A DNA stretch of 64,000 bases from Naegleria gruberi (GCA_000004985.1 GG738851.1); one strand, 5' to 3'; shown: positions 1-27,533, numbered from the stretch's first letter. Program-made: numbers and translations. The notes: a model not told the origin generated them from the sequence alone.

Positions 1-257
1 AATTTTTGATATAAATGATTGCACAACTTTCAAAGAACTGAACAATTGGTATATAAAGTGAGAAAAGACACTTTAACAACCAGTGAATTGACATTACTTT
101 TAAGTTTTTTCCCAAATGATGAAAAATTATATTCAAAATTTGTAACATTTATTACAATCTTCGTCATCAATCTGTACAATACAGACAATTCCTTGAGGAT
201 AGTAAAATGTTTTCCTATAGAGCCGCACCTATTACTGATGATATTCAAAATATAAAT

Positions 258-624
258 ATGGAATGGGGAACTAATCATGAAGATAATGCATTGGCATGGA
301 GAAAAATAATGACTTGGAATCTTTAGATTATTTGAATGAAAATTTTAACATCAATTTACCTCTACCTTTAGGAGCTTTCCTGACGCTATTCTCTATGAAG
401 AAATTGTTCCAAACAAACAATGCATTTTAAGAGGTTTAAATGAAATGAAATCCTGTGTTGAAATCAAATGTTCTTCTCCTTTTATTTTAAACAAAGATGG
501 TTCTTTTGCATATAGACATCAAATACGATATTATTATATTCCACAAATTCAACTTCAAATGCACCTAACACAGAATGATTCTTGCTTAATGGTTAATTAT
601 ACACCAACAGCAGGATGTTCTTGA
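258..624 (+). pseudogene. Remnant of a YqaJ-like (lambda-exonuclease / PD-(D/E)XK) viral-type recombination exonuclease, broken by an in-frame TAG and a frameshift
   Basis: 258-323 translates to MEWGTNHEDNALAWRKIMTWNL, which fits the YqaJ G-x3-E-x2-A-x3-Y motif, then hits TAG. A second frame, 381-624, gives PDAILYEEIVPNKQCILRGLNEMKSCVEIKCSSPF...YYYIPQIQLQMHLTQNDSCLMVNY, matching the SPDG...EIKCP and Y-x-Q-x-Q-x-Q motifs. There is no GT in the gap, so splicing cannot join the two frames. Confidence 0.45.
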
Positions 625-755
625 TGATATTTTACATGATATTTTCCAATTATTATCAATCTTGATTAATTTACTTTATCCATATGTGGTGCATCAAATA
701 TATTATCACTATCTTTATTGTTTGAATTTATTGAAGTGGAGTCATAACTAACGTT

Positions 756-2679
756 TTATTTGTCTGTCTTTTGCACAATAATTGGAGTACCTACTTGTAC
801 AACTACAAAGGCATGGATTGGTTTTGTAGAAAATTTCTTATTCTCCTTCAACAATTTAACATAATCACTAAGTTGTGTTTTTGCTTTTTCAACAACATGA
901 CTAACTATTTTCATTTCCTCCTTATCTGTTCCAAAGAGATATGTTTCATTTAATGGTAGATTAAGTAATTCATTTTCGAATAATTCAGAAAGTCCTTCAT
1001 TAATTCTTTCAACAGTTTTGGGACGTTTCCATTTTCCACTCAATACATCAAACATAGTTCTCCTATATTGCTCTATCAATATCTTTGATTTCGATTTAGT
1101 TCTCTGTTTTAAAACATATTTCAATTGTTTATCATTCCAGGTTAAACCATTAGGACTAATTCTTTTAAGTTCAAATATTATCACATCTTTATCACTTTCC
1201 AATATTATATCAGTTCTTTTATCAAAATCATTATCTACTTTTTGATTCTCACTGAAATGTTGTTCATTGATTCCACTTTCTGTTTTAACTTGGAAATAAG
1301 AGTTTCCATGTTTATAGTAAGCTTGTAAAACACAATAAATTGCATGTTGAAGTGCTCCCTCTGAAAAAGAATTATCATAATGGATATACCTTTCTCCAAT
1401 AATATTTTCCAATATCTTTTTTACAATGTCCACAGAAGGATGTTTGTAACGTAATATCATGTCATTTTGAGTTAGTGAAACAATATTTTCCAGTTCATAA
1501 AAATATTGTTTTTGTGCTATTTCATTGGGAATTAATAATGTTTTACAGAATGAATTATCTTCTTCTGAAAATGTAAGCATTCCATGGTAATACATGAAGG
1601 ATAATGTATTATCCCATACTTGTTTTACACTTAACTCAGTCGTTGGTGGTTCTATAATCTCACGAAGTTTGAAAGAACTAACAATGGAAGTATTAACTTG
1701 AACAAAATTTGTGGCTAAAAGTTGTTGAATGATAGGAGTAGAAACTGAAGTTGTTGCAAGAGTAGCAAAAACATTCTCACTAATTTTTGTGTTATTATCT
1801 ATCATATTGATGAGAGGAATATCTTTACCTTCCATAACATCTGATCTGAATTGATTATTACTCAAAAGCTTATCCATAAAATACATTGACAGAGTGGGAT
1901 TGAAGAGGGGTTGAGATGATCCTGGAAAATGATAACCTTTATAGAATCTTTTCATTATTGAGATTGCATTATTATTCTGATGATCATTTAAAATACCTAT
2001 ATTATTCAAGGCCAGTCTCAAATCACTTTCAGTGAAACCAACTAAATCACCAAACATTTCCCAATCTGCTTTTTCCTTTCAACATTGCTGTTACCAAGTT
2101 ATCAAATGACACAAGAGCATCGGATGAAATAATTTGTTGAATATTACCTTCCATATTATGAATGGTTAAAAATCTTGTGATATCCGAATTGATTTTGTTG
2201 AATAACGCTTGTTTGATATCTTCAGGAGAACCACTAACATCAATTGAAAAATGTGTATGATTCTCAGGTTTGCCAATCCACAAACCACCAAACAATTCAT
2301 CAAATTGATCTTTCTTGTTAATATCATAATATGACGTCAACATTGATAATAACAATGACTTTCCCCATCTCGGGGGACGAACAAAGAATAATTGTTTACC
2401 ACTACTTTCCAACAAAGGAATCAAATGAGTCTTATCAACATAGAATTGTTTGCTTCTTCTGATGGACGCAAAGTCTGCTTCACCATACGGAAAATAGGGA
2501 ACAGTAACATCAATTAGATTGTTATTTAAATTTAGAATTGTTGAAAATTGTCTGAGTTGATGGTTAGTGAATATAGACGGAGTAGTACAAGGTTGATGAT
2601 TGAATTTTATATTGTTGATGAGTTGGTGATCACGGATAAAATTTAGATGTGATGAAAAGGATGTTTTATGAGGAGTATG
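756..2679 (-). CDS. AAA-ATPase-like (PF09820) plus PDDEXK_9/DUF1703 PD-(D/E)XK nuclease-family protein. The frame is broken by a 1-nt shift in an A5 run and no in-frame ATG is present, so this is a possible pseudogene or a sequencing error.
   Basis: The N-terminal frame reads ...NLIDVTVPYFPYGEADFASIRRSKQFYVDKTHLIPLLESSGKQLFFVRPPRWGKSLLLSMLTSYY, with the YVDKT and FxxRPRRFGKSL signatures. Two ORFs, 2047-2424 and 756-2057, overlap. Removing one A from the run at 2070-2074 gives a continuous ...AMLKGKADWEMFGDLVGFTESD. Upstream, the frame runs to a TAA at 2680-2682 with no ATG. Confidence 0.6.
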
Positions 2680-3209
2680 TTAAAAAAAAATTTGTTTTGC
2701 GGAGCAAACAAGGCGTGTGTTGCGCATTTTTTTCAACAATGTACCAAAGGTACTGTGGGCAAACTCGTTAAATATTTGCATCGATGTGCAAATCTGTCAA
2801 GTCGACACAAACCACCTTCCGAGGCAATGGATTCCTACGAGATTTACCAGGCAGCAGTAACTGTCCTGGGTTTACATTGGGAGTGGAGAGTAAGGTAAAT
2901 GGATGCTCACTATCTGATTCTTTCTATATTATTACTTGTTCTTGAATTGTAAGAATTTTTTAGGCCAAAAGCAATTTCAATTACACAAACGACTTGTTTT
3001 AAGTACTCCATTGTTCTTTTCTTTTTTGATTATTAAAAAAATCGATTGATCCATATTTAATTAGTATTTAAAGTGTCTGAATTGAATTAGCAGCAGAACT
3101 CAAGCGTGGATGGATTGAAGGGAAGGAAAAGCTAAAAATATTTCTACTAGTTTTAATAAAAAAATTGTACAGTCTGATCCTGTGTTTGCTGTGGTAATAG
3201 GAGGAAACA

Positions 3210-6200
3210 ATGTCTAACTTTATTAGAAGGTTTTTGCTCAATTCTGGAGGTGGTGATGGAGAAAATCAAAATCAAAATACATCATCAGATAATACCACAC
3301 CATCAAATGATAGTAATACTACAACCAATAACACAACTACTCAACCTACACTTCCAACAACAACACCAACAACACAAACAAATCAAAGCCCTAGTAATGT
3401 TGACAGTAATGCTGGATTGTCTGCAGATGAAATCCGTTTGAGGAGATTAAATAGGCTTGGGGGCACAGTCACTCCAATTACAACACCTATCAAGACTTCT
3501 TCACCTCCTAAATCTAATGCTATGGATACACGAGATGATTTTGTACCACCATCAAAAACTCTCACTCCTATTAGTACTCCAAAGGCTACAACTCCAACAT
3601 CAGCAAAATCACCATCAAGTAATCTAAACAAAATGGATACATCCGATGGTACGTATTTTTCAAATTTATTTTAAATTTTACACTGATCAATTTATTACAA
3701 AATTGAAATCAGATATTATCAAGAAGAATTTGAGTTTGGAGGAAAGATTTGTTCATGATACAATTTCCAAGATTTTCAGAGTCACTTTGACTCCAAGTAA
3801 GGATAGTACTTTGTACTACTTGAAAGACTATGCATCTGAATTATCTAACTCACAATTTACTGAAAATGATGTGGAATCTATTTTGATTGAACGTATTTCT
3901 AAAGGAGGCTTCGAACATAGTGGTTCAAAAACTATTTTCTCCTTCTTGATGGAATGCTTTGAACGATCAGAAAGAGAATTAGACAATAAGAAAAAGGAAG
4001 AACAAATCAAAGTCATCAAAAATATCAAGGAAATTATTACTTCATATTGTGGTATTGTTTTGACAGATCCAGATATGTTCGATCAACCAGAGCATATTTC
4101 TAGACAAGGGTCTTTACAACTTGTTGATTATGTTTGTGGAGATATTCCAGGCACATTCCTTCAAGATTTTGTCACAAGATTTGCTGATTCTCCAAAAACT
4201 TTGGAAACAATCTTTGCTCCCGTCTTCAATGATATTTCAACTAGATTTTTGAAAATTACACTTGTTGATGACTATTCTCCATATATTTATGGATTTAAGC
4301 GACTCACTGCTTTGAGAGAACTTTCTATTGTACTTGTAAATCATCCACTCTTTTTACCAAGAAGAAAGAATGGTAATTCTGTCGAATTTGAAACTATTTT
4401 GGGACCTCTTTTCAAAATTACTGCCTATTACGATCAACCAAAAGTTGGTGAACAATACTTTAGAAATGATATTGAGAGATTGACAAATCAAGATGTTGCT
4501 AACATCAAAGATCAAATCAGATCCAAGATTAATATGTACCATACATCATTACAGCAAATTTTCATGAATCTTTTGAAACCAAAAGAAACCAGAGACAAAA
4601 CAATTGAATGGTTATCACTGAGTGTGGACTATAATTCAGCAAGAGCAAAAATGCAAGCAGATCCTCATGTTATCTCAACGGAAGGCTTTATGACAAACTT
4701 GTGTGCTATATTATTGAAGCTTTCCCAACCATTTACTAAAATTGAAGATAGCAAGATACCTGCTACTGCCAAAATTCAAGTTGACTATCCTATGATGAAT
4801 AAGGATGTAAACTTCAAATCAGATGCAAGATTTAATATGGCAGAAAAAGAATCTGAAGAGTACTACAAAACCAAACCTAACACAGATTTTAGTTTTGTAA
4901 GCTCGTGCTTCTTCCTTACATATAGAGCCCTTCACCTTGGCTATTTAGTTACACAGGAAAAGTATCAAAACGCCATAAAAAGACTGCAAGATGTTCAAAG
5001 ACATTATGGTGCAACTCCAAGTCCAGAAGTAAGAAAAGAAATTGATTTATATTACATTATCAGATGGACAGCTGAAACTCATCTTTTCGATCAAAATTTA
5101 CTTGAGGCAATGCTAGATTATTATAGATTCTGTAGCATATGGCTTATAAAGTTGGCAAATCCTACGAATACCGCCAATTATCCTTTGACTCCTCTTGTAG
5201 CAGGTAACACTCACACTACATTCCCTTCTGAGCCTTCAAAGGACTTGGCTGCCATGCCAGAATTCTTCCTAGAAGATATAGTGACATGTTTCACTTTCTT
5301 ATTGAGATACAAGCCTGAATCCTTATCTAGTACTGTTCTTACCGAGACATTCGACATGTTTGCTATGTTCCTCTATCATTCAAAATATGTGAAAAACAGA
5401 TATTTGTTGGCAAAACTACCAGAATTATATTGTGCTATGCTTCCTGCTGGATCAAATGATTTTATTCCACCAATTCTTGTTGAATATTTACCAAACCACA
5501 AATTCTCTCAACTTAGCCTTACCTCAGGTTTGCTGAAATTATATATTGATATTGAACATGAGAGCTCGTTCTATGAAAAATTCAACTACCGTTATTATAT
5601 CTCTTTGCTTTTGAAGAGCTTATGGAATAGTACTCCTTACAAGACTTCATTCATTCAAATCACAAATAAGACGGATGACACAAGCTTTATGAAATTCTTC
5701 AACTTGTTGCTTAACGATGCCATTTACTTATTGGACGAAAGTTTGAAAGATCTTCAAAAAATCAAAGAAATTCAAACTGTTATGGACACTCCAACTGAAT
5801 GGAATGCATTAACACAACAAGAAAAAACTGACAAAACCACAGCTCTTGCACAATATGAGCGTATGGTCAAATCATACATGCTTTTAGCTAATGAAACTGT
5901 TCATATGTTAAGCTACCTTTCTAAAGATATTCCAAAACCTTTCCTTCGTCCTGAGATGATTGACAGAGTTGCTTCTATGCTTAATTACTTCCTTGTAGAG
6001 TTGGCTGGACCTAAGTGCCAAAACTTGAAGGTTAAAGATCCTGAGAAATATTCATTTAGTGCAAAGTACCTATTGACTGAAATTACTGATACTTACATCC
6101 ACTTCTCTCCATTTGATGAATTTGCTACTGCAGTTGCCAAAGATGAACGATCATTCAAAGCAGACGTATTCGAAAGAGTTGTTGCTATTTTGAGAAAAAT

Positions 6201-6525
6201 AGGTAAAACTGAGGATTACGTAAAGAAATTCGATTCATTTGCTTTAAAGGCATTGGAGGAGGCAAAGAAGTTAATTGACCTAGATGTGGATTACAGTGAT
6301 GCACCAGATGAATTTTTGGATCCTCTTACCTATACCATTATGGAAGATCCAGTTCTTTTACCTGTATCTAAGATTTACATTGATAGGGCAACTATTGAAA
6401 GACATTTACTCAATGATCCAAAAGATCCTTTTAATCGTTCTCCTCTCTCTGTAGACATGTTAGTTCCAGCTCCAGAATTCAAGAAACAAATTATGGAATG
6501 GAAAGCATCCAAAAGAAAACATTAA
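3210..6525 (+). CDS. Ubiquitin conjugation factor E4 / UFD2 (U-box E4 ligase). CDS join(3210..3648,3713..6525).
   Basis: The C-terminus has a U-box: [43 protein letters not shown]. The core is about 900 aa, preceded by a T/N-rich N-terminus. The intron is GTACGT...AG at 3649-3712 (64 nt) and joins ...MDTSD to [11 protein letters not shown] in frame. Confidence 0.85.
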
Positions 6526-6645
6526 TTTATTAAATCAAATATGTAAATAAAAAAAAGCAATTCCTTTATTCCATCAAATAATTATTAAATGGTTTAAATG
6601 GTTTAAACTGATTCCTTTTGTAAAGCTATTTGAACTTTAAAAAAA

Positions 6646-7465
6646 ATGTCATTCTATGAACTTGCCATTGAATTTGCAACTGAAAAACATAAAGGCCAAT
6701 TCCGAAAGGGAGGTGTAATTCCTTATGTTGAGCATCCGAAGGTTTGTAATTTTAATTGCAATAATATATTCTGATAATGTGTTTAGAGAGTTGCAAACAC
6801 TATCAAGGAATTGTTTGAAAAATATCATGATGATCAATATATTAAAACAATAAAAGATCAACAAGCAGATATTGTTAGCAATGGAAAGATTATTTCCGTT
6901 TATGAATCAATTATTTGTGCTGGTGTTTTACATGACACATTGTAAGTAGAGTTATTTATGAATAATGAATCAGCTCATAATTTACAGAGAAGATACTGAT
7001 ACGACTTTTGAGGAAATACTAGATGATTTTGGCTATACCACAGCTTACATTGTTAAAGAATGTACAAATGATGATAAGAAGGTTGCATCTTTGGCAACTG
7101 AAAAGTTTGAACTCTTCAAAAGTAAGAGTCTTGATGAAAATTGCAATTCCTTGTTAGTAAATGTTCTTCAAAATGAAATTGACGAAGTTTCAGAACAAGT
7201 GATGAAGAAGAGATTAGGAAGAAGTTATTATTTCATTGAAAAATTGAATACCATGAGTTTGGAAGCAGCCTTTGTAAAACTTGCAGATCGTTTAGATAAC
7301 ATTTCAGATATTAATGAGATGGCATCTAAATCAAAACCAAAAGGAGGTGATTTCACAATAGAGTACAAATCTGAAACCAATTTTGTAATGAAATCCATTA
7401 ATTTGGATAGATTTACTCCACTTCATAGAGAATTAATTAGTGCTATCAGTGAAATTGTTAAATAA
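6646..7465 (+). CDS. MESH1/HDDC3-like HD-domain (p)ppGpp hydrolase (RelA/SpoT hydrolase family). CDS join(6646..6741,6787..6941,6988..7465).
   Basis: Motifs HKGQFRKGGVIPYVEHPK, VLHDTLEDTDTTFEEIL and KLADRLDNI match the Mesh1/SpoT HD domain. Two introns: GTTTGT..AG (45 nt) and GTAAGT..AG (46 nt). Confidence 0.8.
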
Positions 7466-7470
7466 ATAAA

Positions 7471-9266
7471 TTATTGTTTGTTTATTTGTTTTTTCAAACT
7501 TGAAATAATAGATTCAACCTTTTCGTACTTTGAAGAGGAAATATTATGTAAAGAGCTTACTAATTGAGCGTAGGCATTAAAGTTACCTTGAGCAAATAAG
7601 GTATCAGTCATTCTCAAGTACGTAAATCCAGAAATTGCCTTTCCATTTGAGAAAGATTGATTGATAATTTGAGAGTTAGCTTGATAATTTCCTTCAATGT
7701 CAAGTGCATTTTCACCACCATATTCAAGACCATACTTCCAAGCAGTGGCTCTAGTTTGTGCTACTAATTCTTGTGGTCCACAAGCACAGTTACTTGGCTG
7801 TTCATTGTCTATCATTTCCATGCAAGTAAATTCAAAATCAATGTCATATTGAGCAAACATTTGTGAAATAGCTCCATATCCATCATTGAAAGCATTATTG
7901 TAATAACCAGCAGTAAGTTCAGCAGCATGGCTAGAAGAGAAGAACCACCAATGGATGCCTGCAATTTTACCAGCAATTCTGATATTCTTACCAAAGATAT
8001 TTCTTGCTCTTGATAAAATGTTTGCACCATGTTGAATGAGTTGTCCAGAATACCATGACAAGAAGAATTTGCCATATGGTGAATCATAATTGTCAGCAGT
8101 ATTTTCACTAAAGAATCCAGTTTGATATGGGAATGAATTATAGTATCCAGCATCATCTGGACCAGCATAACCCCAATCAGCATGACCAACCTGTGAGGCC
8201 GATTGTGACAAGTTTCTCAACATGTATTTATCATAACTAAAAATTATTGAACTATTCAATGCAAAAAAACTTACCATTGGAATGCTCCAACACCTGGGAA
8301 TGTCCACAAATTATTTTGTAATTGATAAGATGGGTATCTCATTTCACCTGCAGGTCCAAGGCCAATCTCAATAACTTCAATGACTCCACTACTAATGAAA
8401 GGAGACATTGTTTGCATAAAAGAGCTCATGTAGTCACTATACATATCAACAGCTGTTCTATTCTTTCCTGGAGTACCTGATGGGAATATTGCTACATTAT
8501 CAACACCAAGTGAAAGATATTCTCTGTCACGATGGCCATTTTGATCTGTGTAGAAAATGTCTGGATTATTCTGACCCACTTGAAGAACCCATTTTGGAAG
8601 TGGAATATAAGCAGCATCTCCAACATTAGTACCACATTGATGGAAGGACATGACAGGTTCAACTTTTAATCCCAGTTGTTGGCACATGGTAAATAATTGA
8701 GTATAAGCTGTGAAATTATAAACTTTAGGTGCTAACCCCTCTACTATGCCCCACCAAACATCTATCATAATTCTAATAGATACATTCAAAATTTTCAATT
8801 GTTTGAATTTCCAAATTATCCAACATTCAAATGAACGAAGATTTGAAATATTTAGAAAATTGTCAAAATTTGGGAAAGGAGTTTTGACCACCACCACAAC
8901 AGTTGCAATAAACCATGCAATTGAGGACCAATGTGTGTTAGAATATTGAAATCACAAAAGAGAAAAAACCTACCCATCCGTACCAACTTGTTTAACTTGT
9001 TTCAGATTATTGTAAATCTTTGTCGGATTGTTTAGGGTGCCATCATTATTCACTGTATCCAGTGGCATCATGATATAGACTGGAACATAGGAGCCACCAG
9101 TAGTAGTACTTGTGGATTTTGCTTCTTTACTATTAGTAGACAATCTTATTTTACAATATACAGACTTGTTGAATAACAAGAAACTTATTAGAACAATAAG
9201 AACAATCAGTAAACTGCTAGTAGCAGTAGCAGATCGTGAATGTGTTGCTGAAAATTGACGATTCAT
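7471..9266 (-). CDS. Beta-amylase (glycoside hydrolase family 14) with an N-terminal signal anchor. CDS complement(join(7471..8236,8275..8772,8974..9266)).
   Basis: Motifs VPVYIMMPLDTV, VGTDG|IMIDVWWGIVEG, MSFHQCGTNVGD, GPAGEMRYPSYQ, FQ|CYDKYM, WGYAGPDDAGYYNS and HAAELTAGYYN. Introns are 201 nt (GTAGGT..AG) and 38 nt (GTAAGT..AG). The ATG at 9266 is followed by a hydrophobic stretch, LLIVLIVLISFLLF. Confidence 0.85.
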
Positions 9267-9801
9267 CCTTTGATTATTGTACAAATATTATTTAAATTAT
9301 AATAATTATATGATGATGATGATGATGTTATCGGATCTCTTTACAATGATAGTAGACTACAGTTAAATATCTCGCGCAGTAGATAATGATCTGATGAGCC
9401 AAATAGTAGTAGTATTAGTAGTAGAGAGAAATAGGTCTAGTTTTCAAATCACACACAGAATTTGATCAAGTCTTTGAATATTATTATCGACTTGTTGATG
9501 AGTTTGAGTGTGATGATGGAAGAAGAGGTGCAGGGTAAATTGTCGTCGCAGTTTTCGTGCCTTTTTTTCAAAGCCTTTAAACGTCTAAGATTTTTCATAC
9601 TCCGAAAGTTTTTTTGTAAACAAGTGTTCAGTTAAAAGTGAAAGGCTTGGTTTGTGAAATGAGTGATCATGAAGGTTCTGTTGGATGTTTAGAATCATTT
9701 CAATGTGTGATAATGTGAAATTTTCAAGTGTGTGAATTAATAATCAATAATTTTCATATTGATTGGATTTTCCAAATGTTTTAATTTCAAAAATTAAAAA
9801 A

Positions 9802-10212
9802 ATGTTCAAACAAACATCGCTTTTAAGAAATATTATCAAGTCTTCAACATCATCATGCAATCCAATGATGATGATCGGAAATTATAGAACATCATTGATA
9901 AATCGTTCTTATCACTCTTCCGTATCATTGTTTGCAGAAATGAAGAGAACAGAAAAGGATTTGGCACAAATTTTGGAAAATAACTTTGTTGATGGAGAAA
10001 ACAAGCCAATTATTAGAGTAAATGATATTTCGGGTGGATGTGGAGCAATGTTTGATATTCTTGTTGTTTCCAATAAATTTGAAGGACAATCTCTTGTCAA
10101 ACAACACAAGATGGTGATGGAAATTTTAAAGAAGGATATTCAATCAATGCACGGATTAACAATTAATACAAAGACACCAAAACAATATGAAGATATTATC
10201 AAGAAGAAGTAA
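9802..10212 (+). CDS. BolA-like protein, probably mitochondrial
   Basis: BolA signature VNDISGGCGAMFDILVVSNKFEGQSLVKQHKMVMEIL...HGLTI. The first ATG is at 9802. The ORF-track start at 9763 is a TTG. Confidence 0.75.
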   Translation: MFKQTSLLRNIIKSSTSSCNPMMMIGNYRTSLINRSYHSSVSLFAEMKRTEKDLAQILENNFVDGENKPIIRVNDISGGCGAMFDILVVSNKFEGQSLVKQHKMVMEILKKDIQSMHGLTINTKTPKQYEDIIKKK

Positions 10213-10541
10213 ATTTGTAAATTTTGTAAATTCTCAATACTACTTTCATTTTGGAATAATAATTATTCAATTTCAATCTTGGTTCATTAGTTAAATGGGA
10301 AATTAATAATTTAATATATTAATTATTTAAAAAATCATCGGAATAATTCCAAATATTTAATTCTATTCATTCTCTATTATTCACTACAATAAAAATTGAA
10401 ACACAGTGGAAACACAATAGTGGTGGCTATTTTCAATCAACTTGTTCACAACAATTCGTTTTTCGCCTTTTTTGAATGGCATGATTTTTGGCCGCCTCTT
10501 CAAGAAGATGGCGAAATATCAAACAACAACAACAGAAGAAA

Positions 10542-11715
10542 ATGCAAACAAGTCTTGTTAATAAATCACTGAGAGTTGCAAGAGCAGCAACAGGAAGAGC
10601 ATCATGTTGCTCCTTATTGAATAATAACAGTAGTGGAATTGTAATGATGATGATGATGAATCGATTGGTGCAACAAGGAAATCATAGAGACTTTTCAAAA
10701 CTCTCACAAATTGTTCATTCTTCATTGTCATCTTCGGAACCAGAAATGAAAATTACACAAGAACAATTGAAAGCTGCTTTGGAGAGAAAAAAGTTGGAAC
10801 AAGAACAAAGAATTGCACATAATAAGAAACAAGAAAAGGAAAGAAGAAAGGAAAGGAATAGAGAATTCTTCAAATGGGTTGGATTGTTTAGTGCCTTGTT
10901 CTTTGGTATTATGGTTTATCACTTGGCTTGGTTGGTAAGTTTTTTAACAGAGTGAGGGTTGACTGATTTTATTGAAATAGTGGGCTCCAGAAATTGAAGG
11001 TGCATTGAAAGATTCATTGATTTACTATTTCAGAGATAGTAAGACTCTTACACAACTCTTTTTGAGTGTTTTTGATGAAAGTAAAAAGTTAACACATAGA
11101 ACTCATTTGGAAAATGTGATGGCTACTTTGAGAACGAGTATTAGAGTTGCTAATTCAGGCACTTTTATTCAAGAGTTTGGAACGTTGCAAACTTGTAAAT
11201 GTTTATTGGAATTGGTTAGTACCAATCAATTGACTGAAACTATTGGACAAATTTATCAACAAAAAGTCAATGAGGAAGAAAATGATCTCTCTAAATTGGC
11301 TTTCGTTACTTTGAATTCATTCCTTAAACATTTGACACATCATCCAGAGATTATTAATAATATTAGCTATTTAGTTTTAAATGGAAAAGAGGAGAATTTG
11401 GAAATGTTTATTGTAGATTCTACAGCAAAGAAAGTGGCAAATATTAATTTTGATATTCTTGAAGTTTTACTTTCAAATTGTCAAACATCACTCAAATCCA
11501 AATCAAACACTGATAATATTGAACTCATAGAAAAGAACGAGCCTTACATGGAATTCATACAATTGTTATTTTCAAACTCTAATTTCATTAATGTTTTAGA
11601 AAAATCTCCATATTCTAGTGTGGTTAACACAAAGTTACAATCATGGTCTATTTCAAATGAAAGAGAAAAGAAATTCCTTGCCAATAAGATATCATCCTTC
11701 ATCAACTCAAAATAA
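10542..11715 (+). CDS. Hypothetical protein with an N-terminal presequence-like region, a coiled coil and one transmembrane helix. Likely join(10542..10934,10981..11715).
   Basis: The first in-frame ATG is 10542 (MQTSLVNKSLRVARAATGRAS). A TM helix GLFSALFFGIMVYHLAWL lies just before a GTAAGT donor at 10935. An acceptor AG at 10979-80 joins in frame to WAPEIEGALKDSLIYYFRDSK..., which is the ORF at 11005-11715. Confidence 0.5.
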
Positions 11716-11732
11716 ATTTATCAAACATTCGG

Positions 11733-14487
11733 TTAACATTGAATTTTAATGTTGGGAATCTTAGTGAGATCAACTTGTGAAAAGTCTACAGTTGATCTTG
11801 TTGAATTCCACAAGCATAATGAATCCAAAATAGTTTCTACAGATTTCAATGGATTTTCAATAAATATACAATCTGGAGTGTGCAAATATTTAAGCCCAAA
11901 ATGCTTATTCAAACAATTGCCCAATTGATCATCCTTAATACACGTGCTTCCTACATTGAGATAGGTCAATAAAGGGCAGTCAATGTTAAATGATTCAATG
12001 TTGGATCCAAAAATTGATATTGAAGAAAGTGTTTTGTTTCTGATCACCACTGCAAGAGGTTCAGTATTGCAGATGTATTTCATTGATAGGTGAACAAGAG
12101 ATCCCAAATTTTCAAAATCAACCTTTACATCAGATCTATCCATTACTAGATGAGTCAAATTAGGAAGTCTTGGTAGGATTTTTACAATTTTACATCCTGA
12201 AATATCTAAATATTGGATTGATTGTGGAAGTGTTAACTCTGGAATAACTCTTTCAACAGAAAGGCAGAGATGCGTTATTAAATGTAAGTGTTCAAACTGA
12301 TCTAGGTTGTCATTTCCACTCAATTTAAGCTTTCTTAATGAGGTGTGTAATTTAGGTGAATCAATATTGGATCCTGAAATATCTAAATCTGTGATAGAGC
12401 TATAACACTCAAACATTCCTATAATGCCACAATTAATAATGTGAAGTTTTTTGAGAGATGAGTTTGGATATCTAGAAGTTATTTTCAACTTTTTACAATT
12501 ATAAATTATCAAACTCTCCAAATTAGGTCCCTTGAAAAACCAATTTGTCTTGATTGTTGGACATAAAAATGTAGATGGAGATATAACCACCAGAGTTTTC
12601 AGGTTGGATTTGACTTTTGTAGTCAGGGCTTTGATACATCTGACTGCCTCTCCTTTCAGGGTAATAGTCTGTAAATTCTTGAATTCATTCAAAAACTTGG
12701 TAAAGAAATTCCTATCAAAAAGTAGTGGAATTGTGATGGATTTCTTCTCGAATAAGCATTCTCTGAATTGTCTGTTAACAGATGAAATTGTTGGATAATG
12801 TCGAGTTTCTATATATTCAATAATTTTTCCAACAAGTTCGTTCGGTAAATCAAACCTATAAGCTTGCTTTACAATATTGCTACTTGCTTTTCTTCGTTTT
12901 AACATGTCAAAATAATTGGTGTTTGGCATTTTAGACATTTCAGAAACAATTATTTCTCTACGAATATTCTTATCAAAATCGCAAGTAATTGGATTCTCTG
13001 GATCTTGAATAGAGAAAATTGCAGATGATAATCCATACCTTGACATCTCTTTCAAATCATCTAGTTTATAAAAGCCAAGTTTAGCAGGTGGACCAATAGT
13101 ATCTACACTCTGATAAAGGTTGGTTGTCATTCCAAATGAAAATAATGATTTGTCATGGTTAACAGCTCCAAAACTACATATTTGCGTTGTTTCACTATTT
13201 TTAGGTTTGATTTGAAATAACTCTCTTGATTGTTTTAAATTTACAACTTTGCAAGTATTGCATCCTGTTATAAATAAATAATTATTATCAATTATATCAA
13301 CACTATTTACAGGATATACATGGTTTTGAGGGTAGCCTGATGGACTTTTAAATATTGAAAGATATTCATTGGATTCAAAATGAAAATTGACCAAATTATG
13401 TAAAATAATTTGACCTCCAGTTGTTCCCAAAATTATGCCTCTCTCTGGATCGTTTTTGAAATTAACTGTTGTAATAAATCCAAAGACGCCAATAATTTCA
13501 GCTGAATAGATCTCCTTATCTCTTGTCATATCATATATTTTAACAGTTTTACCACTACAAGTAGCCATAAATGGAAAATTAATATCGAATACAGATGCAT
13601 TATGCATTGGCAAAGTGACTCCTTCATGAATGTTTCTGATATCATACGATATAAAAGCTGATCCATCGAATGGGTTTGATATAATAGTATTCAGGGAATG
13701 GCAATATTTGATTTTTCCAGGACGGAGGGTCTTATCACCACCACAGATGTCATTATTACAAGTCTGTTTTACAAAATCAATAGAATGAATTTTTCCATCT
13801 ATTGTACTACTATATACAACGTTATTTGCATCCATTACTGAATTAATTACTGGTAAAGAATGATTAAAATTGGCCAATTCCAAATTATTTTCATCCATTT
13901 TTCCAAGAAATGTCTTTAATTATTTGTCAACAAGTTTAAATAATCTAAAAACACTTACCATACCATTCCAAGATGAAAGACAAAATAAATGTCTGTCATT
14001 GAGTGAATAAGTATGACTTGTAATACCTTCTTTCACAATAGGATTAATCTCGAATTCTAAATGATTGGCTTTGTACGAATGATGCAAAGGAATTTGTTTT
14101 GGAAAACCATAAATTGAAGAATCATTCGTAGAGACAAACTCCAAACTTGTTACTTTCAAAACACTTTAAATGTAAATATGAATAAAAGATTAATTCCTAC
14201 CTCTTGTTCGATTGATCAAACATGGAATAACCCGATAACAATCGGATACAATCCTTGTATTTTAAACGAGTACTCATATTGGATTGAATAACAATCGGTA
14301 AACAATAAATACTATCACTAACTGTAGCAAAAATATGAACCCGATCTTTAGATAAAATTGGATAATCAATTACTTGAACAATTGGATGGTCAATTAAATC
14401 AAATGGAATATTGGAGGCAATTTGATCGCATATTTTAGAACACCAACCAGAGGATAGACGGACCGATGACGATTCTTGTTGCGACAT
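11733..14487 (-). CDS. WD40-like beta-propeller, then F-box, then leucine-rich-repeat protein. CDS complement(join(11733..13913,13959..14163,14201..14487)).
   Basis: The N-terminus has WD-like repeats, for example ATCSGKTVKIYDM. The central F-box is LPNELVGKIIEYIETRHYPTISSVNRQFRE. The C-terminus has LRRs. Two introns, GTAGGA..AG (37 nt) and GTAAGT..AG (45 nt), keep the frame. Confidence 0.7.
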
Positions 14488-24677: not shown

Positions 24678-27533
24678 TTATTCAAAATGTTTCAATTTAC
24701 AAACCTTCCACCATTTCCACATTTTGAGATTGGATGGTTGTCTAGCTTTGGATTTCCTTTTCATTAAAACCACAACTAATATGACAATAAGGATAATTAT
24801 GAGTGCAAGAATTGAAACCACAACTATTGGAACAACCACAGCAGCTGCAATGGCCCCACCACTCATTAATTCTTCCTTTGCAAAATCATTTCTTCCCTCA
24901 GAGGTTGATGGGATTGAAACTACTATAGTTCTAGAAGGATTCGAATACTTATGAATAGAAATTGGAGAAGTAGTTTGAACGGAATCACTGATTATTGTTT
25001 GATTTTTGAAAATTAGATATGATAATGCAGTCAGTTTTCCAACTGTAACTCCGATAGGAATACTTGTTGTAAAGTTTGATGAAAGCAATGGAAACTGATG
25101 GAATGACAAAAATTGATCATCAATATAGTAAGCAATAACTAATTCGATCTGCTCACTGGAATTGAAGTAGCCCAAGAAGTTGTCTTGTACAATACTGAAG
25201 GAAAGCGATGAAGTGATAAATTGAACATAGTCAACCGAAGCATTGAATTGCAACAACATGGAAGAATTAGTGAGATATCTGTACTGACACTGTTCTCCCA
25301 CAATGCCTTTCATACATTTGCAAGTGTTGAAATTTTCACATTCTCCCTGGGAATTGCAAACTGTTGAATCGTTAGATAACTTATCGAAACAAAAGGTCAC
25401 ATTACATGATTCTCCCATCCACTTTGAAATATTGTTGCACTTGCAAGTATCGAATGATAGACAAGTACCATTTCCTTCATTACAAACATGTGTGGAGTAT
25501 TGTTCAATTCCAAAACATGTGGTAAATTCACAATTCTTTCCAGAATATCCTTCATTACATTTACATTCGTCTACATCTATGCATTTACCATTTTGAGAAC
25601 AAACTGATGAGTGGTTATGTAGTATTTCTTTACATTTGAATAGCTGACAATTCTCTCCAAAATAACCCTCCACTTCTCTGCACGAACATTGATTTGGGGC
25701 AAGGCAATTACCTCTTGAAGAACAAACTTGTGAGGAATTCTTCTTAATTCCAAAACAATCAAACATTTCACATTGATCTCCATAATAACCATCATGACAT
25801 GTGCAATTATTAGCAGAAGCACATCTACCATGAGAAGAGCAAACTGAGCTATTATCAAATTTGACTCCAAAGCAATCGAAACTTTCACATTGATTTCCAT
25901 AATAAGCACTGTTGATACATGAGCAATTGTTTGGTGAGGTACATACACCTCTTGAGGAGCAAACAGATGAAGAATTCTTCTTAATTCCAAAACAATCATA
26001 CATTTCACATTGATTTCCATAATAACCATCATGACATGTGCAATTATTGGCGGAAGCACATCTACCATGAGAAGAGCAAACTGAACTATTATCAAATTTG
26101 ACTCCAAAGCAATCGAAATTTTGACAGCTGACTCCATAATATCCTTTCATGCAGGTGCAATTATTTGGAGATGCACAACTTCCACGTGAAGAGCAAACAG
26201 ATGAGGAATTCTTCTCTACACCAAAACAAGCATGCATTTCACATCGATTTCCATAATATCCACCACTACATGAGCAATAGTTTGGTGAGGTACATACACC
26301 TCTTGAAGAGCAAACAGATGAAGAATTCTTCTTAATTCCATAACATTCATACATTTCACATTGATTTCCATAGTAGCCCTCCTCACAAGTGCAATTATTT
26401 CTGGATGAGCATTGCCCATGAGCAGAACAAACATTTGACTGATTTGAAGGAATGTTATAACATTCAAATGAGTTACAATAAGCTCCATGATAACCACTCC
26501 AACATTCACAAGTGTGTGTTGATACATTGAAAGAAGAGAATCGATCACAAAATGGAATAAGCTTTCGAATCTCAGATTGGGTTGCAAAAATGATTTCTCC
26601 ATTAGTGGGACATATTGAGATACTTGAAGGTCCATATATTCTCCCCAATGTAGCAAGAGAACCATCACCACTAGTTCCAGAAGTACCAGTTCCTGCCACT
26701 GTTGTTATAATACCATCCTTTGACACTCTTCTAATTCTGTGATTATTGACATCAGCAATGAAAACAACACCTGTTGGCAGGACATCTAAACCAGCAGGAG
26801 TATATAGCTGTGCATTGACTGCCAAACCACCATCACCACTAAAACCTAGAGTACCAGTGCCAGCAATAGTTGTAACTATTCCATCCTTATCAATCTTTCG
26901 AATTCTATGATTGAATGCATCTGCAAAGTAGATTGATCCAATTGCAGCAGTGATACCTCTTGGAGATGTAATTTTACAATCTTTAGCAAGCGAGCCATCG
27001 CCACCATAACCATAAGATGCTCCAGCAATGCGAACATTGGTTCCATTCTTGAATATTTGCTTGATTGAGTAGTCAGTACCAACCAACACATCATCAGTTT
27101 CACTCATTGTCAAGCTCACTGGAGAGAATGCTGAACCGTATGTTGAAATTATACCATTCTTGTCGACCTTTCTAACAATATTATTGATATTTTCAGTGAA
27201 GAATGTATCACCATCCTTGCTGAATCCAAGACCCATTGGTGAATTAAGTTTAGCATTGATTGCAAGACCACCATCACCTGAATATCCTCTAGAATTAAAT
27301 TGTCCTGCCAACCCAACAGATGTACCATTTGGATACTGGACAAACACATAGCTTTTTACTGTGTGTGCAACGTAGATTTCTCCACCTGAACCACAATGAG
27401 CATAGTATGATTGTTGAATACCACTAATAGGTGTGGCAAGTTTGTACTGAGGGTCATAACATGTGACCACATGTGATACACAATGCACAACTAGAAGGCA
27501 TATTAAGATGAATGAGAGTGTGTAGCCTTGCAT
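24678..27533 (-). CDS. Type I membrane protein: signal peptide, NHL-repeat beta-propeller, about 14 tenascin-type EGF-like repeats, one C-terminal TM
   Basis: The ATG at 27533 starts MQGYTLSFILICLLVVHCVS. NHL motifs include HRIRKIDKDGIVTTIAGTGTLGFSGDGGLA and HRIRRVSKDGIITTVAGTG. The EGF units look like CSSRGVCTSPNNCSC..YYGNQCE..DCFG. The TM is AIAAAVVVPIVVVSILALIIILIVILVVVLMKRK. Confidence 0.8.
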   Translation of the reverse strand: MQGYTLSFILICLLVVHCVSHVVTCYDPQYKLATPISGIQQSYYAHCGSGGEIYVAHTVKSYVFVQYPNGTSVGLAGQFNSRGYSGDGGLAINAKLNSPMGLGFSKDGDTFFTENINNIVRKVDKNGIISTYGSAFSPVSLTMSETDDVLVGTDYSIKQIFKNGTNVRIAGASYGYGGDGSLAKDCKITSPRGITAAIGSIYFADAFNHRIRKIDKDGIVTTIAGTGTLGFSGDGGLAVNAQLYTPAGLDVLPTGVVFIADVNNHRIRRVSKDGIITTVAGTGTSGTSGDGSLATLGRIYGPSSISICPTNGEIIFATQSEIRKLIPFCDRFSSFNVSTHTCECWSGYHGAYCNSFECYNIPSNQSNVCSAHGQCSSRNNCTCEEGYYGNQCEMYECYGIKKNSSSVCSSRGVCTSPNYCSCSGGYYGNRCEMHACFGVEKNSSSVCSSRGSCASPNNCTCMKGYYGVSCQNFDCFGVKFDNSSVCSSHGRCASANNCTCHDGYYGNQCEMYDCFGIKKNSSSVCSSRGVCTSPNNCSCINSAYYGNQCESFDCFGVKFDNSSVCSSHGRCASANNCTCHDGYYGDQCEMFDCFGIKKNSSQVCSSRGNCLAPNQCSCREVEGYFGENCQLFKCKEILHNHSSVCSQNGKCIDVDECKCNEGYSGKNCEFTTCFGIEQYSTHVCNEGNGTCLSFDTCKCNNISKWMGESCNVTFCFDKLSNDSTVCNSQGECENFNTCKCMKGIVGEQCQYRYLTNSSMLLQFNASVDYVQFITSSLSFSIVQDNFLGYFNSSEQIELVIAYYIDDQFLSFHQFPLLSSNFTTSIPIGVTVGKLTALSYLIFKNQTIISDSVQTTSPISIHKYSNPSRTIVVSIPSTSEGRNDFAKEELMSGGAIAAAVVVPIVVVSILALIIILIVILVVVLMKRKSKARQPSNLKMWKWWKVCKLKHFE
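25500..26460 (-). repeat. Internal tandem array of ~117-bp (39-aa EGF) units. Adjacent ~237-bp blocks are over 90% identical.
   Basis: The motif aattcttcttaattcc recurs at 25736, 25973 and 26324, and a variant at 26207. The blocks 25736-25972 and 25973-26206 are nearly identical. Confidence 0.75.

What the first reader, a model, noticed from the sequence alone, without database searches (positions are those of the whole stretch)
258..2679. Two adjacent, apparently decaying bacterial or phage-type nuclease genes (YqaJ-like exonuclease and AAA-ATPase-like/PDDEXK_9) at the window edge
Both encoded families, the YqaJ/lambda-exonuclease recombination nuclease and the PF09820 plus PF08011 'predicted AAA-ATPase' PD-(D/E)XK protein, are typical of bacteria, phages and large DNA viruses. 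They are rare in eukaryotic nuclear genomes. Here they sit side by side on opposite strands. Both are disrupted: the YqaJ frame has an in-frame TAG and a frameshift, and the PDDEXK_9 gene has a 1-nt shift in an A5 run and no start codon. Their codon usage is host-like AT-rich. This fits an old horizontal transfer, a viral insertion or mobile-element cargo that is now being eroded. Alternatively one or both lesions are sequencing errors and the genes are functional foreign nucleases.
Basis: partly seen in the sequence, partly recalled or inferred. Interest (0 to 1): 0.65.

Follow-up and report, generated by a model that had tools for sequence, protein, structure and literature searches.

The report
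Two dead nuclease genes in Naegleria
At the edge of this Naegleria gruberi window lie two unrelated, inactivated nuclease genes: a broken fragment of a virus-type lambda-exonuclease (YqaJ) gene, and a disabled copy of an ATPase-nuclease family that is otherwise intact in Naegleria. This is ordinary gene decay, with a small hint of past viral DNA uptake.

Summary
The window is Naegleria gruberi (Heterolobosea), not an amoebozoan.

YqaJ relic (+ strand, nt 16-624):
- It reads through frames 1, 3, 2 and 1, with an in-frame TAG at 324-326.
- It lacks the last ~84 residues. Its first ~64 residues would lie beyond the window edge.
- Its only detectable relatives are uncultured proteins on gene-dense, ORFan-rich contigs that look like large DNA viruses.
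- No Naegleria protein matched.

ATPase-nuclease gene (- strand, 2727-756):
- It belongs to the DUF1703 architecture: a Cdc6/Orc1-like AAA+ module plus a C-terminal PD-(D/E)XK domain.
- Naegleria and Willaertia keep intact members, including an N. gruberi paralogue and a non-syntenic N. lovaniensis closest homologue.
- The start codon exists but is followed by TAA at codon 16.
- The supposed 1-nt frameshift is the scar of an ~83-codon deletion that removed Walker B. A further 11 codons are deleted.

Nothing links the two genes to one insertion. Interest is low to moderate.

The parts
16..132 (+). YqaJ relic, segment 1 (frame 1): 'QRTEQLVYKVRKDTLTTSELTLLLSFFP', the N-terminal helix region of the YqaJ domain.
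   Evidence: A profile built from six metagenomic homologues matches its positions 65-103 here. The same segment aligns in A2.
246..299 (+). YqaJ relic, segment 2 (frame 3): 'QNINMEWGTNHEDNALAW', the conserved WG.xHE.xA motif.
   Evidence: Family profile positions 151-168, i-Evalue 2.6e-6. Frame 3 is open over 123-323.
324..326 (+). In-frame TAG that ends the frame-3 segment of the YqaJ relic.
   Evidence: Translations. There is no GT dinucleotide in 296-376, so splicing cannot remove it.
327..375 (+). Bridging stretch readable only in frame 2 ('LESLDYLNENFNINLPLPLGA'). It leads into the (A)SPD motif, so frame changes are needed on both sides.
   Evidence: Frame map. It aligns with '...LPIGASPDG' of the homologues.
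376..624 (+). YqaJ relic, segment 3 (frame 1), the catalytic core. It holds D at 382-384 (F-P-D-A), E-I-K at 460-468 and 'YYYIPQIQLQMHLT...YTPTAG', then a TGA stop at 622-624. The C-terminal ~84 family residues are absent.
   Evidence: Family profile positions 203-283 of 367, score 75 bits, i-Evalue 3e-25. Pfam YqaJ 23.4 bits. phmmer hits P0124 and P0127 and related proteins.
625..755 (.). 131-nt spacer between the two convergent relics. It is too short to hold the missing ~250 nt of the YqaJ 3' end.
   Evidence: No significant match to family profile positions 284-367 in any frame.
756..2060 (-). 3' part of the DUF1703-type pseudogene: a 433-codon open frame from the ATG at 2057, with its stop at 758-756. 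It holds the helical middle region and the PD-(D/E)XK domain, with E at 1280-1278, D at 1211-1209 and E-L-K at 1172-1164. GenBank annotates only its last 376 codons as 'predicted protein'.
   Evidence: tblastn places P0002 residues 317-740 on window 2060-762 at 69% identity. P0001 is 100% identical. hhalign against the bacterial family.
2060..2062 (-). Deletion junction and frame change. About 83 codons are missing here, equivalent to N. lovaniensis residues 234-316: Walker B LMVLIDEYD, the sensor-1 region and the start of AAA+ domain 2.
   Evidence: The two tblastn HSPs abut at 2062 (frame -3) and 2060 (frame -1). Alignment A1. Pfam PF09820 coverage is 1-119/201 here, against 1-199/201 in P0002 and P0005. 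tblastx shows a gap over L001 10700-10948.
2062..2679 (-). 5' part of the pseudogene: a presequence-like region plus the first half of the AAA+ domain, with Walker A 'RPPRWGKS' at 2379-2356. It also carries an in-frame deletion of 11 codons after 'KPENHT'.
   Evidence: Pfam PF09820, E 2e-24. A1 shows the 11-residue gap. tblastn.
2680..2682 (-). Premature in-frame TAA at codon 16, at the end of a T9 run on the coding strand.
   Evidence: Translation 'AKQIFF*HTPHK'. ORF 2680..2781 ends here. The only upstream GT donor does not give an in-frame splice (reading).
2683..2727 (-). The original first 15 codons, with the ATG at 2727-2725 ('MRNTRLVCSAKQIFF'). They are homologous to the 'MRKTKQLASCL' and 'MRKSNLFVACL' starts of the N. 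lovaniensis and N. fowleri proteins.
   Evidence: Alignment A1, columns 1-25. ORF list.

Best explanation
These are two independent pseudogenes lying tail to tail in the Naegleria gruberi nuclear genome.

(1) The YqaJ relic (nt 16-624, + strand).
- It is the remains of a lambda-exonuclease/YqaJ-type gene. In phages and large DNA viruses this enzyme resects the 5' strand of double-stranded DNA ends for recombination-dependent replication.
- The codons for the catalytic Asp and Glu-x-Lys are still readable.
- The frame is broken at least three times and contains a TAG, and the C-terminal quarter is gone. It cannot make an enzyme.
- Its only detectable relatives are uncultured proteins on compact, intron-free, ORFan-rich contigs, and no Naegleria proteome has an intact homologue. 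The most likely source (inferred) is DNA of a large eukaryotic virus, or a virus-like element, that entered the N. gruberi lineage and decayed.

(2) The ATPase-nuclease pseudogene (nt 2727-756, - strand).
- It is an inactivated paralogue of a DUF1703-type family: a Cdc6/Orc1-like AAA+ ATPase fused to a C-terminal PD-(D/E)XK nuclease.
- The family is of bacterial type but is resident and multi-copy in Naegleria and Willaertia. There it carries an added N-terminal extension that resembles a mitochondrial presequence.
- This copy was disabled by a nonsense codon at codon 16, an 11-codon deletion, and an out-of-frame deletion of ~83 codons that removed Walker B.
- Few other lesions are present, the surviving frames are long, and dN/dS against the N. 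lovaniensis homologue is about 0.3. Inactivation therefore looks fairly recent (inferred).

The adjacency of the two genes is best read as coincidence, or as one relic having been truncated when the other arrived.
For: Host identity:
- P0001 is 100% identical and named 'predicted protein [Naegleria gruberi]'.

YqaJ relic:
- Pfam matches.
- The family profile matches three segments in frames 1, 3 and 1, with the best E 3e-25.
- A full HMMER scan of 1.84 billion representatives finds only metagenomic homologues, at 44-56% identity over 60-80 residues.
- The word-based search of 5.8 billion clusters, which includes the Naegleria proteomes, finds nothing.
- The family profile hits lambda exonuclease 1avq (E 6e-11) and mimivirus R354.
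- The homologues sit on contigs with about 90% coding density and mostly ORFans, plus ankyrin, Ulp1-like C48 protease and ABC transporter genes.
- YqaJ-like recombinase is listed as an ancestral gene of nucleocytoplasmic large DNA viruses (PMC3620924). It also occurs in polinton-like viruses and in Yaravirus.

ATPase-nuclease gene:
- Homologues were found, and A1 shows all the lesions.
- tblastn HSP coordinates and Pfam half-coverage.
- hhalign against the bacterial PF09820+PF08011 family gives probability 100%, E 8e-83, over 553 columns.
- In the NJ tree the window copy is sister to N. lovaniensis P0002, inside a eukaryotic cluster.
- The AF2 model of P0002 has Cdc6 (1fnn) as its top PDB match, and residues 1-84 are disordered.
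- dN/dS is 0.27-0.34.

Independence of the two genes:
- No flank synteny and no YqaJ near the N. lovaniensis gene.
- No locus carries both families.
- No repeats frame the region.
Against: - The viral nature of the YqaJ homologue contigs is inferred from gene density and content only. No capsid, packaging ATPase or polymerase gene was seen on them.
- A scan of IMG/VR found no relative.
- Fold matches to cultured-virus proteins are all at 20% identity or less and mix phage with giant-virus proteins.
- The Mimiviridae promoter motif is not enriched on these contigs.
- The sequence upstream of window position 1 could not be obtained, so a larger viral insertion there is not excluded.
- Adjacency of two rare nuclease families could still reflect a common history.
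- Expression of the 433-codon 3' ORF was not tested.
- The NJ tree has no support values, and the dN/dS estimate is a rough Nei-Gojobori calculation with dS of 0.7-1.0.
Confidence: 0.78

Rival explanations
1. Both genes arrived together as cargo of one viral or mobile-element insertion that is now eroding. On this view the window edge cuts through a larger foreign island.
For: - Two nuclease families typical of bacteria, phages and viruses lie 131 nt apart, tail to tail.
- The ATPase-nuclease gene is not syntenic with its N. lovaniensis closest homologue, so it has moved or its neighbourhood has changed.
- In another eukaryote (L006) this family sits in tandem and fragmentary copies next to LTR retrotransposons.
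- The sequence upstream of position 1 is unknown.
Against: - The ATPase-nuclease gene nests inside a Naegleria/Willaertia clade, with N. lovaniensis P0002 as its sister. It also shares the family's host-type N-terminal extension. It is therefore a resident paralogue, not a recent import.
- None of the fetched loci carries both families.
- The genes on the other side are ordinary host genes, starting with a spliced UFD2/E4-like gene at 3210.
- No terminal inverted or direct repeats were found.
- There is no compositional break.
Confidence: 0.1
2. The lesions are sequencing or assembly errors, or are removed by splicing, and one or both genes are functional foreign nucleases.
For: - Two of the lesions touch homopolymer runs: T9 next to the TAA at 2680-2682, and A5 near 2070.
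- A GT..AG pair at 142-197 (56 nt) could in principle join frame 1 to frame 3 in the YqaJ relic (reading).
- Long frames stay open in an AT-rich genome (433 and 206 codons).
Against: - The ATPase-nuclease gene lacks about 250 nt that all seven homologues have, including Walker B, and another 11 codons. A base-calling error cannot do that.
- The TAA cannot be spliced out in frame.
- The YqaJ TAG and the frame 3 to 2 to 1 changes lie in a stretch with no GT dinucleotide (296-376). The segment lengths are already shorter than in the homologues, so there is no room for introns.
- The YqaJ C-terminal ~84 residues are simply absent.
- The database protein for this locus is only the 3' 376 codons.
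Confidence: 0.04
3. The 3' ORF of the ATPase-nuclease gene (433 codons from ATG 2057, or the annotated 376) is still expressed as a stand-alone PD-(D/E)XK protein. It would lack the ATPase and the targeting sequence, making it a truncated but retained gene rather than a pure pseudogene.
For: - The frame is open for 433 codons in a genome of about 30% GC.
- The nuclease motifs E, D, ExK and Q are intact.
- dN/dS is 0.27 over this part.
- GenBank holds a protein record for it.
Against: - No homologue in any species has this truncated architecture. The one 442-aa Willaertia entry (P0010) was not examined.
- The low dN/dS is equally expected from a long shared history under selection followed by recent inactivation.
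- No promoter or expression evidence was available.
- The internal ATG has no conserved counterpart in the family.
Confidence: 0.12
4. The YqaJ relic comes from bacterial or phage DNA, or from a cellular eukaryotic gene or transposon family, rather than from a large eukaryotic DNA virus.
For: - The top fold matches of the homologue model include many phage YqaJ proteins.
- PHROGs assigns the homologues to RecE-like/YqaJ phage exonuclease families.
- IMG/VR holds no relative.
- No viral hallmark gene was found on the homologue contigs.
- One homologue (L016) comes from an NCBI assembly of unknown nature.
Against: - The homologues are 365-435 aa, against about 200-230 aa for phage enzymes, and carry extra N- and C-terminal regions.
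- They have an AT-rich, K/N-rich style.
- Their neighbours include ankyrin-repeat, Ulp1-like and eukaryote-type ABC transporter genes, packed at about 90% density on both strands without introns.
- The neighbours have no PHROG matches at all, apart from one weak tape-measure hit.
Confidence: 0.25

Closest known systems
Lambda exonuclease / YqaJ-like viral recombinase family (Pfam PF09588; PDB 1avq; mimivirus R354, PDB 5yet)
   Same: - The relic matches the Pfam model above threshold.
- It still encodes the PD-(D/E)XK catalytic Asp and Glu-x-Lys, and the 'YYxPQxQxQ' helix.
- The profile of its subfamily hits lambda exonuclease at E 6e-11 and R354 at E 2e-7.
   Different: - It is not an intact gene. 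It has at least three frame changes and a TAG, and about 84 C-terminal residues are missing. About 64 N-terminal residues fall outside the window.
- Its subfamily is longer (365-435 aa) than the phage enzymes. It has a conserved N-terminal 'G..PN..WK.L' motif and a C-terminal helical extension.
- The subfamily has no cultured or named member among the proteins retrieved.
DUF1703 proteins (PF09820 AAA-ATPase_like + PF08011 PDDEXK_9; Knizewski et al. 2007, PMC1913061; expansions in Cardinium, Rickettsia and Simkania, PMC6387759)
   Same: - The four-part architecture aligns end to end with the bacterial family (hhalign probability 100%).
- It has the atypical Walker A R-P-x-R-x-G-K-S and, in intact homologues, Walker B D-E-Y-D.
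- It has nuclease motifs I-IV (E, D, ExK, Q).
- Its AAA+ fold is of the Cdc6/Orc1 type, as predicted in 2007.
   Different: - It is a eukaryotic clade (Naegleria, Willaertia, Amoeboaphelidium and unidentified eukaryote-like contigs) that clusters apart from the bacterial sequences.
- Pfam PF08011 no longer detects its nuclease domain.
- It has a 23-80 aa basic, acid-poor N-terminal extension that bacteria lack.
- The window copy has also lost Walker B and the second half of the AAA+ domain, and it carries a stop at codon 16.
Giant endogenous viral elements (GEVEs) and smaller viral gene relics in protist genomes
   Same: It is a decayed gene of a family that is ancestral in Nucleocytoviricota. 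It sits in a protist nuclear genome, and the host has no intact homologue.
   Different: - It is a single ~600-bp relic, not a cluster of viral hallmark genes.
- The neighbours inside the window are host genes.
- The viral identity of its closest relatives is unproven.
- Published work states that endogenised viral genomes have not been seen in Naegleria (PMC11043551), and found no enrichment of viral-origin genes in the methylated gene fraction of N. gruberi (PMC12344493).

Membership tests
YqaJ / lambda-exonuclease (PF09588) | Match to the Pfam model at or above the gathering score | tested here: met
   The unstitched ORF 349-621 scores 23.4 bits against GA 22. The stitched translation scores 28.4 bits over profile positions 49-148 of 150.
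YqaJ / lambda-exonuclease (PF09588) | PD-(D/E)XK catalytic residues (Asp; Glu-x-Lys) at the conserved positions | tested here: met
   D at nt 382-384 aligns with the '(A)SPD' motif. E-I-K at nt 460-468 aligns with the invariant E.KC column of the homologues.
YqaJ / lambda-exonuclease (PF09588) | One continuous reading frame covering the whole domain (a gene that can make the enzyme) | tested here: not met
   The homology runs through frames 1, 3, 2 and 1, with a TAG at 324-326. Family profile positions 284-367 are absent.
YqaJ / lambda-exonuclease (PF09588) | 5'-3' exonuclease activity on dsDNA ends; toroidal oligomer | not testable with these tools
   This needs biochemistry. It is irrelevant for a broken gene.
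DUF1703 (PF09820 + PF08011) | [quoted passage not shown] | tested here: met
   PF09820 E 2e-24. 'RPPRWGKS' lies at nt 2379-2356.
DUF1703 (PF09820 + PF08011) | Walker B (D-E-Y-D) and the complete AAA+ domains 1 and 2 | tested here: not met
   Deleted in the window copy: Pfam covers only profile positions 1-119 of 201, and P0002 residues 234-316 are missing. Present in all intact homologues as 'LIDEYD'.
DUF1703 (PF09820 + PF08011) | C-terminal PD-(D/E)XK domain (PF08011) with motifs I-IV | tested here: inconclusive
   Pfam PF08011 gives no hit for the window copy and only E 0.012 for paralogue P0005. The family profile does align through the bacterial nuclease domain (hhalign probability 100%), and E, D, E-L-K and Q are present.
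DUF1703 (PF09820 + PF08011) | Intact open reading frame from the family's start codon | tested here: not met
   TAA at codon 16 (2682-2680) and a frame change at 2060-2062.
Endogenous giant-virus element (GEVE) | Cluster of several viral hallmark or virus-best-hit genes in one region | tested here: not met
   Inside the window only the one YqaJ relic qualifies. The next genes are of host type: UFD2/E4-like, Use1, M16 peptidase and kinesin. The region upstream of position 1 could not be read.
Endogenous giant-virus element (GEVE) | Closest relatives are demonstrably viral | tested here: inconclusive
   The relatives lie on dense, ORFan-rich contigs. They lack hallmark genes, are absent from IMG/VR, and are at most 20% identical to cultured-virus proteins.
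Known anti-phage defence systems (PADLOC models; PF09820 also occurs in RADAR RdrA, PARIS and Old-tin) | Match to a PADLOC protein model | tested here: not met
   No PADLOC hit for P0002, P0005, bacterial P0083, the window's 3' ORF or the YqaJ homologue P0136.

The most novel reading that the evidence does not exclude
The YqaJ relic may be the visible edge of a larger endogenised large-DNA-virus or polinton-like element that continues upstream of window position 1 in the N. gruberi scaffold. That would be the first documented viral endogenisation in Naegleria, where the literature says none has been observed (PMC11043551). It would also give a host for an uncultured viral lineage known so far only from metagenomic contigs (P0124, P0127, P0128, P0130, P0136).
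Probability: 0.12. Interest if true: 0.55.

Novelty: new member of a known kind. Interest (0 to 1): 0.3.

Why it matters
Mostly it tidies the annotation. The GenBank 'predicted protein' at this locus is the tail of a pseudogene, and an unannotated YqaJ pseudogene lies next to it.

Two modest points go further:
- A virus-type recombination nuclease relic with no host homologue is a small piece of evidence that foreign, probably viral, DNA has entered the Naegleria germline. Viral endogenisation has been reported as unobserved in this genus.
- Working out the pseudogene exposed a eukaryotic clade of DUF1703 ATPase-nucleases with what looks like a mitochondrial presequence. It is intact in Naegleria (including pathogenic N. 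fowleri) and Willaertia, and its function is unknown and testable.

Tried and rejected
- **Splicing rescue of the lesions.** Rejected for the YqaJ TAG and the second and third frame changes: there is no GT in 296-376 and no spare length. Also rejected for the TAA at 2680-2682, because the only upstream donor gives an out-of-frame product. A 56-nt GT..AG at 142-197 could explain the first YqaJ frame change but has a poor GAG acceptor and does not save the gene (reading).
- **Synteny with N. lovaniensis.** tblastx of window 1-12000 against 22 kb around P0002 matches only the gene itself.
- **Co-occurrence of the two families.** None found in any of the fetched loci.
- **Repeats and transposon termini.** The only self-match of 1-3200 within the window is to itself. 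Only short, chance-level direct and inverted repeats were found.
- **Word-based protein searches for the YqaJ relic and its family profile.** These returned nothing new.
- **Collection scans with the YqaJ family.** The IMG/VR scan gave no relative. The metagenome scan gave six loci, mostly more distant GC-rich homologues.
- **Identity of the neighbours of the YqaJ homologues.** Pfam, PHROGs and PDB sequence searches gave nothing significant. The Mimiviridae AAAATTGA promoter motif is not enriched.
- **Phage tblastn.** Only E 0.8 hits to Stx-phage exonucleases.
- **Defence systems.** No PADLOC hits.
- **Non-coding RNA.** Rfam and tRNA scans of 1-3400 and 1-8000 found nothing, including in the GC-richer stretch 2700-2900.
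- **Reading the scaffold upstream of position 1.** The N. gruberi genome appears not to be in that index.
- **The afdb50 fold library** was unavailable.
Full report
**Organism and setting**

The conceptual product of the minus-strand gene finds a 100% identical 376-aa 'predicted protein [Naegleria gruberi]' on a 693,645-bp contig. The window is therefore nuclear DNA of the heterolobosean N. gruberi, not of an amoebozoan. GC content is 29-37% throughout, with no break at the finding. GC3 of both relics is 0.16-0.28, at or just below the range of 18 long ORFs of the window (0.26 +/- 0.04). The next gene on the far side is a host-type UFD2/E4-like gene with a 64-nt GT..AG intron at 3649-3712.

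**The ATPase-nuclease gene (minus strand, 2727-756)**

Pfam finds PF09820 (E 2e-24) in the reading 2679-2062. It covers only profile positions 1-119 of 201, whereas the intact homologues P0002 and P0005 are covered over 1-199.

Homologues:
- N. lovaniensis P0002, 744 aa, 65% identity.
- N. fowleri P0003, 670 aa.
- The N. gruberi paralogue NAEGRDRAFT_78045 (P0005), 705 aa.
- Two further N. lovaniensis paralogues.
- Two Willaertia magna proteins.

Alignment A1 and tblastn show exactly what is wrong with the window copy:
- The family's start is present (ATG 2727-2725, 'MRNTRLVCSAKQIFF') but runs into TAA at 2682-2680.
- Eleven codons are missing after 'KPENHT'.
- P0002 residues 16-233 map to 2637-2062 in frame -3, and residues 317-740 map to 2060-762 in frame -1.
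- So 83 codons are deleted, including Walker B 'LMVLIDEYD', and the frame changes at the junction.

'No start codon' is in fact a nonsense codon at codon 16. Splicing cannot repair either lesion. Sequence is missing rather than extra, and the only GT upstream of the TAA gives an out-of-frame join.

**What the family is**

- The heterolobosean proteins align end to end with bacterial PF09820+PF08011 proteins (hhalign probability 100%, E 8e-83, 553 columns).
- The alignment includes the C-terminal nuclease domain, even though Pfam's PF08011 model does not detect that domain in the window copy or in P0002 and gives only E 0.012 for P0005.
- The motifs that define DUF1703 (Knizewski et al. 2007, PMC1913061) are present: Walker A R-P-x-R-x-G-K-S, Walker B DEYD, and nuclease motifs E, D, ExK and Q. 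The window copy keeps Walker A (2379-2356) and the nuclease motifs (E 1280-1278, D 1211-1209, E-L-K 1172-1164).
- An AlphaFold model of P0002 (pLDDT 70) has archaeal Cdc6 (1fnn) and Orc proteins as its best PDB matches. This agrees with the 2007 prediction.
- No PADLOC defence model matches.
- In a rough NJ tree, the eukaryotic sequences cluster apart from the bacterial ones. They comprise Naegleria, Willaertia, Amoeboaphelidium, a EukProt transcript and several eukaryote-like metagenomic contigs. The window copy is sister to N. lovaniensis P0002.

The family is thus a long-resident, multi-copy host family of bacterial type, and only this copy is dying.

Evidence on timing:
- dN/dS against P0002 is 0.27 for the 3' part and 0.34 for the 5' part.
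- Frames of 433 and 206 codons are still open.
- Both fit fairly recent inactivation. They do not exclude expression of a truncated 3' product, which I rate at about 0.12.

**The YqaJ relic (plus strand)**

- Pfam YqaJ matches the unstitched ORF 349-621 at 23.4 bits, against a gathering score of 22.
- The word-based search of 5.8 billion clusters found nothing.
- The full HMMER scan of 1.84 billion representatives found a small set of 365-435 aa proteins, all metagenomic: P0124, P0127, P0128, P0130, P0132 and P0136, at 44-56% identity over 60-80 residues.
- A profile of these proteins matches the window in three pieces:
  - nt 16-132, frame 1, profile positions 65-103.
  - nt 246-299, frame 3, positions 151-168.
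  - nt 376-624, frame 1, positions 203-283 of 367, E 3e-25.
- Frame 3 ends at TAG 324-326. Only frame 2 is open across 327-375, and frame 1 reopens at 349.
- Nothing matches profile positions 284-367. Only 131 nt remain before the stop codon of the neighbouring gene, so the 3' end is truncated.
- Positions 1-64 would lie upstream of the window.
- The catalytic D (382-384) and E-I-K (460-468) are still readable.
- The subfamily profile hits lambda exonuclease (1avq, E 6e-11) and mimivirus R354 (5yet). Membership of the family is therefore secure, but the gene is dead.

**Where the YqaJ relic came from**

Its homologues lie on short contigs with the following features:
- About 90% coding density, genes on both strands and no introns.
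- Mostly ORFans, with paralogous ~200-aa ORFs.
- On the longest contig, ankyrin-repeat, Ulp1-like C48 protease and ABC transporter genes.

This is the look of large DNA viruses of eukaryotes. YqaJ-like recombinase is an ancestral gene of nucleocytoplasmic large DNA viruses (PMC3620924). It also occurs in polinton-like viruses and in Yaravirus.

However, the viral identity is not proven:
- No hallmark gene was found on these contigs.
- IMG/VR holds no relative.
- The Mimiviridae promoter motif is not enriched.
- Fold matches to cultured-virus proteins are a phage and giant-virus mix at 20% identity or less.

I therefore put about 0.6 on a eukaryotic-virus or virus-like source for the relic, and about 0.25 on other sources.

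**Are the two genes one insertion?**

- The N. lovaniensis locus shares only the ATPase-nuclease gene with the window, with no flank synteny and no YqaJ.
- No fetched locus holds both families.
- There are no framing repeats and no compositional step.
- The ATPase-nuclease gene carries the host family's N-terminal extension.

The simplest reading is two separate histories. Possibly the arrival or rearrangement of one clipped the 3' end of the other. A shared island extending beyond the window edge cannot be excluded, because the N. gruberi scaffold could not be reached with the tools.

**Verdict**

Both objects are new members of known kinds, namely pseudogenes of the YqaJ and DUF1703 families. 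Interest is low to moderate. The only potentially notable angle is that published work says endogenised viral genomes have not been seen in Naegleria (PMC11043551), and this relic may be a small counter-example or the edge of one.

Noticed in passing
Homologues P0002, P0003, P0005, P0007-P0009, P0011, P0014 and P0019; in the window, nt 2727-2500 (- strand): Most eukaryotic members checked in the DUF1703-type clade have a 23-80 aa N-terminal extension before the conserved 'FPYG', where bacterial homologues have 3 aa. P0012 and P0018 are exceptions. The extension is basic (5-13 K/R), nearly free of acidic residues and S/T-rich. It ends in 'IR(K/S/R)FST' or 'RRFLST', which looks like a mitochondrial presequence with an R-2/R-3 processing site. 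It is disordered in the AF2 model (residues 1-84). This suggests an organelle-targeted ATPase-nuclease in Naegleria, including N. fowleri. No targeting predictor was run.
   Followed up: partly
L007:3931-5685(-) and L015:5640-7166(-): In two independent metagenomic contigs the YqaJ homologue is followed, convergently and within a few bases, by a homologous 509-585 aa ORFan (23% identity over 483 aa, E 2e-29) with a K/E-rich tail. It has no Pfam, PHROG or PDB sequence match. It may be a conserved partner of this YqaJ subfamily, for example an annealing or DNA-binding protein.
   Followed up: partly
L006:6587-11981 (ENA ERZ25069580, 227-kb contig): An unidentified eukaryote carries three tandem or fragmentary copies of the same ATPase-nuclease family, on both strands, right next to Ty3/gypsy-type LTR retrotransposon ORFs (RVT_1, RNase H, rve). 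So the family also duplicates and decays outside Heterolobosea.
   Followed up: no
window 2044-2060 vs 2282-2298: A 17-nt imperfect direct repeat (AAATCACCAAACATTTC / AAACCACCAAACAATTC) has one copy ending exactly at the 83-codon deletion junction. This could be chance, or a trace of microhomology-mediated deletion.
   Followed up: no
window 756-2637 vs L001:10046-12232: Synonymous divergence between the N. gruberi pseudogene and its closest N. lovaniensis homologue is only about 0.7-1.0, and their flanks share no synteny. Whether this pair is truly orthologous, or the gene moved or was exchanged, was not resolved.
   Followed up: no
window 2700-2900: A stretch noticeably richer in G+C than its surroundings lies between the pseudogene's start and the UFD2-like gene. 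It gave no Rfam or tRNA match, and its nature is unknown.
   Followed up: partly
window 3210-6525 (+): This is a U-box / UFD2 (E4)-like gene with a low-complexity T/N/S/P-rich N-terminus and one 64-nt intron (GTACGT...CAG, 3649-3712) in phase 1. The family was identified by eye only and was not run against Pfam.
   Followed up: partly
window 24678-27533 (-): A 951-aa ORF has many EGF repeats and NHL repeats that hit teneurin-type EGF/NHL Pfam models (EGF_2 E 1e-39, TEN_NHL E 1e-16). This is an animal-like extracellular architecture in a heterolobosean.
   Followed up: no
L005 (ENA ERZ929261, 7.5-kb contig): An environmental metagenome contains a Naegleria whose orthologue of NAEGRDRAFT_78045 is 94.6% identical to the N. 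gruberi protein. That sample could supply a close-relative copy of the locus studied here.
   Followed up: no
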